A stretch of 64,000 nt of DNA from Dictyostelium discoideum (lineage: Eukaryota): positions 2,176,001 through 2,240,000 of the forward strand of contig CM000152.2 of NCBI GenBank assembly GCA_000004695.1. Direction: 5' to 3'. Shown piece by piece: positions 60,357 through 61,136 of this stretch (its first letter is position 1; every line of letters starts with the position of its first letter). Under the pieces are notes generated by a model, which made no database searches, was not told the origin of the DNA, and saw only the letters and a program-made list of their open reading frames with translations. The position numbers and the translations under genes are program-made.

Positions 60357-60723
60357 TTATTCTGATGGTAATTTATTTTTTTTACAGGAATTAATTAAAC
60401 CAGTTATCCATTCCTGATGTCCATTAATCATTGGGTTAGGTACAGTTGAAGCCAACTTTCTTGCAGGTTTTCCATTTTGTGATTCTTGAGTTAAAATACG
60501 AACTCTTCCTCCTGGTAAATCTTCGATAAGCCAAGCACGAGTAACATCCAATCTAGTTTCACAATCTCCTTCAGCCCATCCATGCCAAGATAATCGGCCA
60601 GCAATTCCTTTTGAAGGGTAAACATATCATTTCATTTGATGAAAAATTATCTGTAGTTCCAGGAATATACTCTTGTGGCCAAATAATAGCAGATTGAAAA
60701 TTTGATTGTTGAATTGATGACAT
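60357..60723 (-). pseudogene. Small conserved-looking protein gene (~120 aa) split by a +1 frameshift in an A4 run; possible pseudogene or sequence error
   Basis: The N-terminal part MSSIQQSNFQSAIIWPQEYIPGTTDNFSSNEMICLPF reads in one frame (track ORF 60571..60771). The C-terminal part KGIAGRLSWHGWAEGDCETRLDVTRAWLIEDLPGGRVRILTQESQNGKPARKLASTVPNPMINGHQEWITG... reads in the +1 frame (track ORF 60357..60551). They join at TTCAAAAGGAATT; deleting one A gives F-K-G-I. Local GC content is clearly above that of the surrounding DNA. Confidence 0.45.
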
Positions 60724-61136
60724 TTTTTTAATTAAAATTAACCTTAATACATATAAAAAATAAAATGGCATATTTAAAAAAAAAAAAAAAAAGCAAATTT
60801 AAAGTTGAACCTTTAGATTTATTCTAAAATTTTTTAATGTTAACCCACACCGGCATACATTATGTATATTTTTTATTTTTTTTATTTTTTAAAATAGAAA
60901 TTTTTACAAAACACTTCACCACAAAGAATATTTTTTAAATTTTTTAGTGTTGGAAATTATCTGTATCATTAAAATTGAAAGAAAAAAAAAAAGATAAAAA
61001 ATAGAAAAATATCTACTAAATAATTTTTCGATACTTTTATTAGTTTTTTATCCATTATGTTCTATTTTTTTAATAAATTGAAAATATGAGATAAATATTA
61101 ATTTTATTTTGTTAAAAAATGAAATAAAATTAATTA

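What the first reader, a model, noticed from the sequence alone, without database searches (positions are those of the whole stretch)
60357..60771. GC-richer small gene interrupted by a +1 frameshift in an A4 run
Two adjacent minus-strand ORFs are halves of one ~120-aa protein. They are joined at TTCAAAAGGAATT, where removal of one A gives ...ICLPFKGIAGRLSWHGWAEGDCETRLDVTRAWLIEDLPGG.... Both halves look like a globular conserved protein (Trp/Gly/Pro-rich, not low-complexity). Local GC content is clearly above that of the surrounding DNA, which suggests either strong codon bias or foreign (bacterial-like) origin. The break could be a sequencing error, a recent pseudogenisation, or a site of transcriptional slippage or programmed frameshift.
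Basis: seen in the sequence. Interest (0 to 1): 0.55.

Follow-up and report, generated by a model that had tools for sequence, protein, structure and literature searches.

The report
Deletion-killed bacterial-type SRPBCC pseudogene
The two small ORFs are the remains of a bacterial-type ligand-binding (SRPBCC) gene in Dictyostelium discoideum that was inactivated by a 182-bp internal deletion, not by a one-base slip in an A run; it is an ordinary pseudogene, and diverged wild lineages still carry the intact 182-codon gene at the same locus.

Summary
The two minus-strand ORFs are real and are pieces of one gene. The proposed break point and the ~120-aa protein are wrong.

- **Lesion:** Alignment to intact 182-codon orthologues at the same syntenic locus in two diverged assemblies labelled D. 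discoideum shows that the window lacks 182 bp (codons 34-94). The junction is at 60627-60624, about 12 nt upstream of the A4 run.
- **A4 run:** It has no indel. It reads Ser-Lys-Gly in the conserved frame (AAT to AAA).
- **What was lost:** Two helices, three to four strands and 9 of 45 invariant residues of a helix-grip (SRPBCC) fold. The window also carries Arg at an invariant His.
- **Independent confirmation:** A separate assembly has the identical sequence. A third, AX4-like haplotype has different lesions (a 2-bp and a 23-bp deletion).
- **Annotation:** The annotated 82-aa (DDB_G0279543) and 102-aa models depend on artefactual GC-rich "introns" that encode conserved residues.
- **Origin:** The closest relatives are bacterial, with Klebsiella and other Enterobacteriaceae at about 72% identity. 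Codon usage is fully Dictyostelium-like (GC3 0.15). So a bacterial origin rests on homology, not GC, and the donor is unresolved.

Verdict: an ordinary unitary pseudogene of a probably horizontally acquired gene.

The parts
60625..60723 (-). Retained 5' part of the gene: ATG (60723-60721) and codons 1-33 (MSSIQQSNFQSAIIWPQEYIPGTTDNFSSNEMI).
   Evidence: Translation. Aligns to residues 1-33 of the intact orthologues P0001 and P0160 and to the N-termini of the bacterial homologues.
60624..60627 (-). Deletion junction. 182 bp (codons 34-94 of the intact gene) are missing. The placement is ambiguous over 3 positions because of a 2-nt AT microhomology.
   Evidence: DNA alignments A1 and A3. The gene is 367 nt here against 549 nt intact. 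Deleting 182 nt from L083 at gene position 96-98 reproduces the window junction exactly.
60571..60624 (-). Out-of-frame tail of the first ORF (CLPFKRNCWPIILAWMG) ending in a premature TGA (60573-60571). This is not real protein sequence of the family.
   Evidence: Translation. The same DNA read in the other frame gives the conserved VYPSKGIAGRLSWHGWAEGD.
60357..60623 (-). Retained 3' part of the gene: codons 95-182 plus TAA (60359-60357), in the frame shifted relative to the ATG.
   Evidence: tblastn gives 93% identity to residues 95-182 of P0001. About 70% identity to bacterial SRPBCC proteins.
60609..60612 (-). The A4 run proposed as the frameshift site. In fact it is the last base of Ser98 (TCA) plus Lys99 (AAA), created by an AAT-to-AAA substitution. 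There is no indel.
   Evidence: Alignments A1 and A3 have no gap here. The intact alleles read TCAAATGG, and the AX4-like haplotype L084 also reads TCAAAAGG.
60537..60539 (-). Codon 123: CGT (Arg) where His is invariant in 43 of 43 family members. This is a window-lineage-specific change consistent with lost constraint.
   Evidence: Alignment A2 lists H123 as invariant. The site table shows CAT in L001, L083 and L084 and CGT only in the window. Coordinates.
60553..60670 (-). The 'intron' needed for the annotated 82-aa AX4 model DDB_G0279543 (P0038). A second model (P0002, 102 aa) needs an 'intron' at 60566-60623. Both are annotation artefacts that bridge the lesion.
   Evidence: Only these GT..AG excisions reproduce P0038 and P0002: 118 nt with GC 0.37, and 58 nt with GC 0.48. 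They remove residues conserved in the intact orthologues and in bacteria.

Best explanation
The feature is a unitary pseudogene in Dictyostelium discoideum (AX4 type; annotated as DDB_G0279543). Its parent is a 182-codon, intron-less gene for a small helix-grip (SRPBCC / Bet v 1-like) protein of the uncharacterised jhp0584 (PDB 4r7k) subfamily.

Shown:
- The gene sits at a fixed chromosomal locus between a short-chain dehydrogenase gene and a Cys-rich secreted-protein gene followed by a subtilase gene.
- It is intact and under purifying selection in two lineages that are 7-8% diverged.
- In the window it has lost 182 bp (codons 34-94) at a junction with 2-nt microhomology.
- Translation from the ATG therefore runs out of frame after codon 33 and stops after 17 more codons. 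The 88 conserved C-terminal codons are left stranded in another frame.
- The lost segment holds the end of strand 1, both short helices and strands 2-4, which form most of the ligand cavity. No frame correction could restore a functional fold.

Inferred:
- The deletion arose by replication slippage or microhomology-mediated end joining.
- It is evolutionarily recent, since the retained codons still look largely constrained.
- The parent gene entered the discoideum lineage from a bacterium (nearest relatives are Enterobacteriaceae) long enough ago to be fully ameliorated to host codon usage.
- The intact protein binds a small hydrophobic or aromatic ligand, as SRPBCC proteins do.
For: Synteny and the intact orthologues:
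- P0001 (L001) and P0160 (L083) lie between the same adh_short and Peptidase_S8 genes.
- L001 and L083 are 89-93% identical to the window across the whole block.

The deletion:
- Alignments A1 and A3 show it. The gene is 549 nt intact against 367 nt here.
- The junction is reproduced exactly from L083, with AT microhomology.
- There is no indel at the A run.

Not an error:
- L002, an independent assembly, is identical.

Fold and what was lost:
- AF2 model with pLDDT 93; residues 34-94 cover the end of E26-35, H39-47, H49-55, E60-64, E77-82 and E85-95.
- 4r7k matches at E = 1.5e-49 by sequence and TM 0.88/0.95 by fold, followed by PYL, ARO/CYC and PR-10 structures.
- 9 of the 45 invariant columns lie in the deletion.

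Selection and decay:
- Intact versus intact dN/dS is 0.07-0.11.
- Window-specific changes are 3 nonsynonymous to 1 synonymous, including H123R at an invariant site.
- The sister AX4-like haplotype (L084-L087, four SRA runs) has a 2-bp deletion, a 23-bp deletion and S29L.

Bacterial affinity:
- More than 1,000 bacterial homologues at 55-72% identity. The best are Klebsiella spallanzanii (71-72%), Kluyvera, Raoultella and Enterobacter.
- The only other eukaryotic hits seen are fungal, at 54% identity and lacking the WHGWAEGD motif.
- GC3 is 0.148 here against 0.72 in Klebsiella.
Against: - Relaxed constraint is not statistically demonstrated: 3 or 4 nonsynonymous to 1 or 2 synonymous changes against 2 to 7, Fisher p = 0.12. 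Overall dN/dS of the retained parts is still about 0.2.
- The order of events is unresolved. The sister haplotype's 2-bp deletion lies exactly at the right-hand breakpoint, so the frameshift may predate a then in-frame 180-bp deletion.
- The donor is unresolved. The NJ tree places the Dictyostelium protein as sister to the Enterobacteriaceae clade with only 21% bootstrap support.
- Absence from other dictyostelids was judged only from the top 120 hits of the protein searches, not from genome searches.
- Fungal members of the family exist.
- No expression data could be examined.
- The strain or species identity of L001 and L083 is not verified. They may be cryptic or sister species rather than D. 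discoideum proper.
Confidence: 0.9

Rival explanations
1. Two-step decay (a variant of the best explanation). [quoted passage not shown] A later deletion of exactly 180 bp (60 codons) in the AX4 lineage then removed the centre, ending at the same spot.
For: - Haplotype L084-L087 is 97-98% identical to the window. It keeps the central 180 nt but has CACA--ATGTTTACCC at the window's right breakpoint.
- It reads the same out-of-frame tail, CLPFKRNCWPIILAWMG*.
- Relative to L084 the window lacks exactly 180 nt.
Against: - It requires a blunt 180-bp deletion to end, by chance, within 0-2 nt of the earlier 2-bp deletion.
- Relative to an intact L083-like ancestor, a single 182-bp deletion with AT microhomology explains the junction equally well.
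- The branch shared by the window and L084 still looks constrained: 4 conservative nonsynonymous to 6 synonymous changes.
- Both scenarios need three indel events in total.
Confidence: 0.4
2. One reading: an essentially intact ~120-aa gene interrupted by a single-base (+1) frameshift in the A4 run. The cause would be a sequencing error, a very recent point indel, or programmed or transcriptional slippage that restores the protein.
For: Deleting one A yields a 121-aa ORF. Homopolymer runs are common error and slippage sites.
Against: - There is no indel at the A run in any alignment.
- The conserved frame (VYPSKG) is already in force upstream of the run.
- The true parent is 182 aa, and 61 codons are missing.
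- An independent assembly has the identical sequence.
- An invariant His is mutated.
- Intact relatives have one continuous ORF with AAT, not A4, at this site.
Confidence: 0.02
3. A genuine spliced gene encoding a short protein, as in the public annotations (82-aa DDB_G0279543 or the 102-aa model). An intron would remove the frame conflict.
For: Both models have GT..AG boundaries and give open reading frames. The neighbouring SDR gene does contain an intron.
Against: - The two pipelines disagree with each other.
- The 'introns' are 118 nt and 58 nt with GC 0.37 and 0.48, in a genome whose non-coding DNA here has GC 0.07-0.15.
- They encode residues conserved in the intact orthologues and in bacteria, such as GRLSWHGWAEGD.
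- The intact orthologues are intron-less.
- The products would lack most of the fold.
Confidence: 0.04
4. Not a horizontal acquisition. The gene would be an old eukaryotic gene retained patchily (Dictyostelium, some fungi), or the bacterial similarity would reflect contamination.
For: - Fungal homologues exist: Venturia and Gnomoniopsis.
- Codon usage is fully host-like.
- Tree support for a specific bacterial sister group is weak.
Against: - Contamination is excluded. The gene lies in chromosome-scale contigs with Dictyostelium flanks in four or more assemblies or haplotypes.
- Identity to Enterobacteriaceae (about 72%) is far higher than to the fungal proteins (54%), which also lack family motifs.
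- No other eukaryote appeared among the 120 best hits of two searches.
- The gene is intron-less.
Confidence: 0.12

Closest known systems
jhp0584 of Helicobacter pylori (PDB 4r7k) and the bacterial 'SRPBCC domain-containing protein' or 'polyketide cyclase' proteins of about 170-175 aa
   Same: - The intact Dictyostelium orthologue aligns end to end: E = 1.5e-49 to 4r7k, and 55-72% identity to enterobacterial, Paraburkholderia and Bacteroidota members.
- It shares all 45 invariant columns.
- Its model superposes on 4r7k at TM 0.88/0.95.
   Different: - The window copy lacks codons 34-94, is frameshifted, and has Arg at the invariant His123.
- It is in a eukaryotic chromosome with host codon usage.
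- The subfamily has no known function and no Pfam or NCBIfam model that it passes.
Published candidate bacterial-to-Dictyostelium gene transfers (16 genes; Sucgang et al. 2011, PMC3188802)
   Same: A bacterial-type gene, intron-less, closest to bacterial sequences, and integrated in the D. discoideum genome.
   Different: - It is not on that list, and its ID appears in no held paper.
- That list is Pfam-domain-based and every member has a D. purpureum orthologue. This gene has no Pfam hit, no dictyostelid orthologue outside the discoideum-labelled assemblies was seen, and in AX4 it is dead.
SRPBCC / Bet v 1-like superfamily: PYR/PYL/RCAR abscisic-acid receptors, PR-10 proteins, aromatase/cyclases (ARO/CYC), START domains
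   Same: Helix-grip fold with a ligand cavity. Foldseek probability 1.0, TM about 0.5-0.6.
   Different: Only 6-16% sequence identity. Nothing here shows a shared ligand or activity. Resemblance of fold only.
Programmed +1 ribosomal frameshift genes (for example prfB, antizyme) and transcriptional slippage at A runs
   Same: Two overlapping frames that could formally be joined by a +1 shift near an A run.
   Different: - The shift site is not conserved. Relatives have AAT there and a single ORF.
- The frames change upstream of the run, and a 61-codon core is missing.

Membership tests
SRPBCC / Bet v 1-like superfamily | Helix-grip fold: an antiparallel sheet wrapped around a long C-terminal helix, enclosing a cavity. 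| tested here: met
   Met for the intact orthologue P0001. The AF2 model has pLDDT 93, with seven strands, two short helices and helix 158-178. Foldseek hits are 4r7k, PYL, ARO/CYC and PR-10. The window copy itself cannot form this fold, because residues 34-94 are absent.
SRPBCC / Bet v 1-like superfamily | Match to a curated domain model (Pfam Polyketide_cyc2 PF10604 or an NCBIfam model) above its threshold. | tested here: not met
   No Pfam or NCBIfam hit for the window peptides, P0001 or P0010. P0075 reaches only 22.5 bits against a cutoff of 27.4.
jhp0584 (4r7k)-like subfamily | Full-length collinear alignment of about 170 aa with the invariant residues, including W43, W52, Y56, F80, F83, W107, W110, H123, Q140, N161 and H163. 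| tested here: not met
   The intact orthologues meet it. The window copy lacks 9 invariant columns (W43 to F85) through the deletion and has R at H123. It is a relic of the subfamily, not a functional member.
Unitary pseudogene | The ORF is disrupted relative to an intact orthologue at the syntenic locus, and there is no intact paralogue. | tested here: met
   182-bp out-of-frame deletion. Synteny. No second copy in the window. The only AX4 protein of the family found is the 82-aa model.
Unitary pseudogene | Relaxed selective constraint after inactivation. | tested here: inconclusive
   Window-only changes are 3 nonsynonymous to 1 synonymous, including an invariant His, against 2 to 7 on the intact lineages. 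Fisher p = 0.12.
Unitary pseudogene | No functional transcript or protein. | not testable with these tools
Programmed frameshift / slippage gene | The shift site and the two-frame architecture are conserved in relatives, and the joined product is full length. | tested here: not met
   Relatives are single ORFs with AAT at the site. The joined product lacks 61 core residues.
Spliceosomal intron (annotated gene models) | Very AT-rich, non-coding sequence bounded by GT..AG and absent from the mature homologous coding sequence. | tested here: not met
   GT..AG boundaries are present, but GC is 0.37 and 0.48, and the sequence encodes conserved family residues that are collinear with the intron-less intact orthologues.
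Horizontally acquired bacterial gene | Integrated in the host chromosome, so not contamination. | tested here: met
   The same flanking Dictyostelium genes appear in L001, L002, L083, L084 and the window. Host-like GC3.
Horizontally acquired bacterial gene | Phylogenetically nested within, or sister to, a bacterial clade with support, and absent from related eukaryotes. | tested here: inconclusive
   - Highest identity is to Klebsiella (72%), and the distribution across bacteria is broad.
- The sister relation to Enterobacteriaceae has only 21% bootstrap support.
- Fungal homologues exist at 54%.
- Other dictyostelid genomes could not be searched.

The most novel reading that the evidence does not exclude
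This would be a previously unlisted bacterial gene acquisition specific to the discoideum clade, with nearest relatives in Enterobacteriaceae, the kind of bacteria these amoebae eat. The gene is still maintained by purifying selection in tropical or cryptic sister lineages. In D. discoideum proper it is being lost through independent indels: 182 bp in AX4/AX2, and 2 bp plus 23 bp in another haplotype. That would make it a natural gain-then-loss polymorphism of a transferred gene, and the intact alleles could be used to find the function of the uncharacterised jhp0584 family.
Probability: 0.35. Interest if true: 0.4.

Novelty: new member of a known kind. Interest (0 to 1): 0.22.

Why it matters
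The main value is housekeeping.

- DDB_G0279543 in the AX4 reference, and the 102-aa model in a newer assembly, are mis-modelled. They should be flagged as a pseudogene, and the invented introns should not enter intron or protein-family statistics.
- It adds one probable bacterial-origin gene to the short Dictyostelium list. Unlike the published 16, it seems restricted to the discoideum clade and is already decaying in the laboratory lineage. That is a small but clean example of the turnover of transferred genes.
- It also shows how an open frame restored by deleting one base in a homopolymer can mislead. The correct diagnosis needed an intact orthologue.

Tried and rejected
- **Domain models:** Pfam and NCBIfam searches of the corrected peptide, both halves and the intact protein gave no hits.
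- **Co-transfer with the adjacent SDR gene:** rejected. Only 1 of 80 bacterial loci has even a weak (29%) SDR match nearby.
- **Further Dictyostelium haplotypes:** a third large protein search with the N-terminal and central segment returned only 5 candidates and no new Dictyostelium haplotype.
- **Exact-product look-ups:** look-ups of P0038 and of the window's 64-, 50- and 66-aa ORF products found nothing on record. The frequency of the AX4 allele in other samples could not be measured.
- **Literature:** searches for the gene ID, the assembly accessions and jhp0584 found nothing. The 2005 genome paper is not held.
- **GC as evidence of foreign origin:** rejected, because GC3 is host-like and the excess lies in codon positions 1 and 2.
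- **Function from bacterial neighbourhoods:** no consistent operon. Enterics have DUF1198 and an MFS transporter. Other taxa have LysR, an OYE-type flavin oxidoreductase, a Zn-dehydrogenase or DJ-1/PfpI. This hints only weakly at small-molecule or redox-stress chemistry.
- **Statistical test for relaxed selection:** not significant.

Full report
**What the window is.** The window has 21.7% GC, long homopolymer tracts and Asn-rich ORFs. The feature's products match Dictyostelium discoideum entries exactly, including DDB_G0279543 of strain AX4. An independent chromosome-scale assembly (L002, GCA_054883475.1) matches the window over 8.6 kb with 0 mismatches. This is therefore a eukaryotic, intron-containing genome. 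Bacterial-style ORF lists must be read accordingly.

**Checking the observation.** On the minus strand, an ATG at 60723 opens MSSIQQSNFQSAIIWPQEYIPGTTDNFSSNEMI. This frame continues as CLPFKRNCWPIILAWMG and stops at 60573-60571. A second frame is open from 60626 and reads YVYPSKGIAGRLSWHGWAEGDCETRLDVTRAW...KLPSE, stopping at 60359-60357. Removing one A from TTCAAAAGG (the A run at 60612-60609) does join them into 121 codons. So the two ORFs and the frame relationship are real.

**What the homologues show.**
- The corrected peptide hits more than 1,000 proteins. Nearly all are bacterial 'SRPBCC domain-containing' proteins of 167-178 aa. They cover only the C-terminal two thirds at about 70% identity, plus a short N-terminal stretch.
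- One D. discoideum-labelled entry (P0001) has 182 aa. It reads ...SSNEMIVSGLNS...(about 60 residues)...QCVYPSNGIAGRLSWHGW....
- Its locus (L001) has the same neighbours as the window: adh_short upstream, then a small Cys-rich gene and a Peptidase_S8 gene downstream. It is therefore the orthologous locus.
- DNA alignment shows the window and L002 lack 182 bp between GAAATGAT and ATGTTTACCC. At the A run there is only a substitution, TCAAATGG to TCAAAAGG.
- The gene is 549 nt intact and 367 nt in the window.
- A second intact allele (P0160, L083, also syntenic) carries TAT at codon 94, as the window does. Deleting 182 nt from it at gene position 96-98 reproduces the window junction exactly. The three equivalent placements reflect a 2-nt AT microhomology.
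- tblastn of P0001 against the window gives only residues 1-33(+) at 60723-60604 and residues 95-182 at 60623-60360.

So the frames change at 60627-60624, not in the A run.

**Consequences for the protein.**
- An alignment of 43 family members has 45 invariant columns. Nine of them (W43, L46, W52, Y56, N58, F80, T82, F83, F85) lie in the deleted segment.
- An AlphaFold2 model of the intact orthologue is confident (pLDDT 93, pTM 0.88). It places the end of strand 26-35, helices 39-47 and 49-55, and strands 60-64, 77-82 and 85-95 within residues 34-94.
- The model matches PDB 4r7k (H. pylori jhp0584; sequence E = 1.5e-49; TM 0.88/0.95). It then matches PYR/PYL receptors, aromatase/cyclases and PR-10 proteins, so this is the helix-grip SRPBCC fold.
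- No frame correction could rescue a fold that lacks half its sheet and both short helices.
- From the ATG the locus can encode only 33 native residues plus 17 out-of-frame residues.

**Is it decaying?**
- The two intact alleles differ from each other with dN/dS of 0.07-0.11, which indicates purifying selection.
- In the retained codons, the changes shared by the window and its closest haplotype are 4 conservative nonsynonymous to 6 synonymous.
- Window-only changes are 3 nonsynonymous to 1 synonymous: S115C, K144N, and H123R at 60539-60537, a position invariant in all 43 homologues.
- This fits recent loss of constraint but is not significant (Fisher p = 0.12).

Independent support comes from a third haplotype, recovered identically from four sequencing runs (L084-L087; 97-98% identical to the window). 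It keeps the central 180 nt. It has a 2-bp deletion at CACA--ATGTTT, a 23-bp deletion near the 3' end, and S29L at a nearly invariant Ser. The 2-bp deletion sits exactly at the window's right breakpoint. There are two possibilities:
- A shared 2-bp frameshift came first, followed by an exactly 180-bp deletion in the AX4 lineage.
- The 182-bp and 2-bp deletions arose independently at an ATAT site.

I cannot decide between these two orders. Either way the locus is dead in AX4-type D. discoideum.

**Rival readings.**
- **Sequencing error** is excluded by the identical independent assembly, and by the nature of the lesion (182 bp, not a homopolymer length change).
- **Programmed frameshifting or slippage** is not supported. 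Intact relatives are single ORFs with AAT at the site, and the joined product would lack the fold core.
- **An intron** is not supported. The public 82-aa and 102-aa models can be reproduced only by excising 60670-60553 (118 nt, GC 0.37) or 60623-60566 (58 nt, GC 0.48). Local non-coding DNA has GC 0.07-0.15, and these 'introns' encode GRLSWHGWAEGD and other conserved residues. The two pipelines disagree with each other, and the intact orthologues are intron-less.

**Origin.**
Overall GC is 0.347, but GC3 is 0.148, within the window's coding range (mean 0.135, range 0.08-0.24). The excess lies in codon positions 1 and 2 (0.447), which reflects a Gly/Trp/Pro/Ala/Arg-rich composition. The adjacent host CDS has GC 0.36. 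The Klebsiella homologue has GC 0.61 and GC3 0.72.
- Homology does point to bacteria. With the full-length protein, the 120 best hits after the Dictyostelium entry are all bacterial or unnamed metagenomic sequences.
- A scan of 185,579 prokaryotic species genomes found 241 relatives. Klebsiella spallanzanii (71%), other Klebsiella, Kluyvera, Raoultella, Enterobacter and Citrobacter lead, followed by Paraburkholderia, Rahnella, Pseudomonas, Flavobacteriia and a few Firmicutes.
- An NJ tree puts the Dictyostelium protein as sister to the Enterobacteriaceae clade, but with only 21% bootstrap support.
- Two fungal proteins (Venturia, Gnomoniopsis) belong to the family. They are only 54% identical and lack the WHGWAEGD motif.
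- The gene is chromosomally integrated with host flanks in every assembly, so it is not contamination.

I infer an old transfer (old enough to be fully ameliorated) from a proteobacterium-like donor into the discoideum lineage. The donor and the date remain unresolved. The gene is not among the 16 published HGT candidates, all of which have D. purpureum orthologues (PMC3188802). Its ID occurs in no held paper. The adjacent SDR gene was not co-transferred.

**Who carries the intact gene?** L001 and L083 are labelled D. discoideum but are only 89-93% identical to the window across the block. For the neighbouring subtilase gene, dS is 0.094 and dN/dS is 0.085. A 2025 paper describes long-read assemblies of AX2-214, wild D. 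discoideum, 'possible cryptic species', and D. citrinum-like isolates that were received as D. discoideum (PMC12745789). These are probably the sources, but I could not verify the mapping from accession to strain.

**Function of the intact protein.** The subfamily is uncharacterised. 4r7k is a structural-genomics 'hypothetical protein', and there is no passing Pfam or NCBIfam model. Bacterial neighbourhoods vary. Enterics have DUF1198 upstream in 37 loci and an MFS transporter downstream. Other taxa have LysR regulators, OYE-type flavin oxidoreductases, Zn-dehydrogenases or DJ-1/PfpI proteins. By fold and context I infer a small hydrophobic or aromatic ligand-binding or ligand-processing role. 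This is inference only.

**Verdict.** This is an ordinary unitary pseudogene. It is modestly interesting as an unlisted, probably bacterial-derived gene that is intact in sister lineages and independently broken in D. discoideum haplotypes, and as a correction to two public gene models.

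Noticed in passing
window 61325-62381 (-): A two-exon short-chain dehydrogenase/reductase gene (adh_short; 291 aa in L001, L002 and L083) lies immediately upstream of the pseudogene. The ORF list reads through its intron into a Tyr-rich tail. It has no counterpart next to the bacterial SRPBCC genes (1 of 80 loci, weak), so there is no sign of co-transfer.
   Followed up: partly
window 59559-59864 and 59903-60280 (+): Two Cys-rich ORFs (101 aa with a signal-peptide-like start, and 125 aa) are annotated in the related loci as one two-exon gene of 218-228 aa with no Pfam hit. 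It converges on the pseudogene, with the two stop codons 77 nt apart. Its GC (0.33-0.36) equals or exceeds that of the 'GC-rich' finding.
   Followed up: no
window 56590-59046 (+): An 818-aa subtilase (Peptidase_S8 in L001) with long poly-Asn tracts, a Cys-rich EGF-like C-terminal region and a transmembrane tail. Its length differs between lineages (818, 804 and 794 aa), mainly in the repeats. Against L001, dS is 0.094 and dN/dS is 0.085.
   Followed up: partly
L001 and L083 (GCA_054859355.1, GCA_054859385.1) versus the window: Assemblies deposited as D. discoideum are 7-11% diverged from the AX4-type sequence across the whole syntenic block. This is consistent with the 'possible cryptic species' or citrinum-like isolates described in PMC12745789. 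The species labels of these records should be used with care.
   Followed up: partly
L084-L087 (Logan contigs from SRR26869267, SRR26869256, SRR28564540, SRR28564543): An AX4-like haplotype of the same locus with different lesions: a 2-bp deletion at codon 94, a 23-bp deletion near the 3' end, and S29L. The 2-bp deletion coincides with the right breakpoint of the window's 182-bp deletion. This coincidence is unexplained. It could be shared ancestry or a local ATAT hotspot.
   Followed up: partly
P0162, P0163, P0164 (Venturia inaequalis, Gnomoniopsis sp. and a Logan contig): Fungal (ascomycete) proteins of the same family at about 54% identity. WHGWAEGD is replaced, and the gene models are truncated at the C-terminus. 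This may be a separate eukaryotic branch or a separate transfer.
   Followed up: partly
window 61141-61185 and 60781-60800 (minus-strand view): Very long homopolymer tracts flank the gene: about 45 A, and about 20 T just upstream of the pseudogene's ATG. The Logan contigs end at such tracts, and homopolymer length differences are the only differences between L002 and the window.
   Followed up: no
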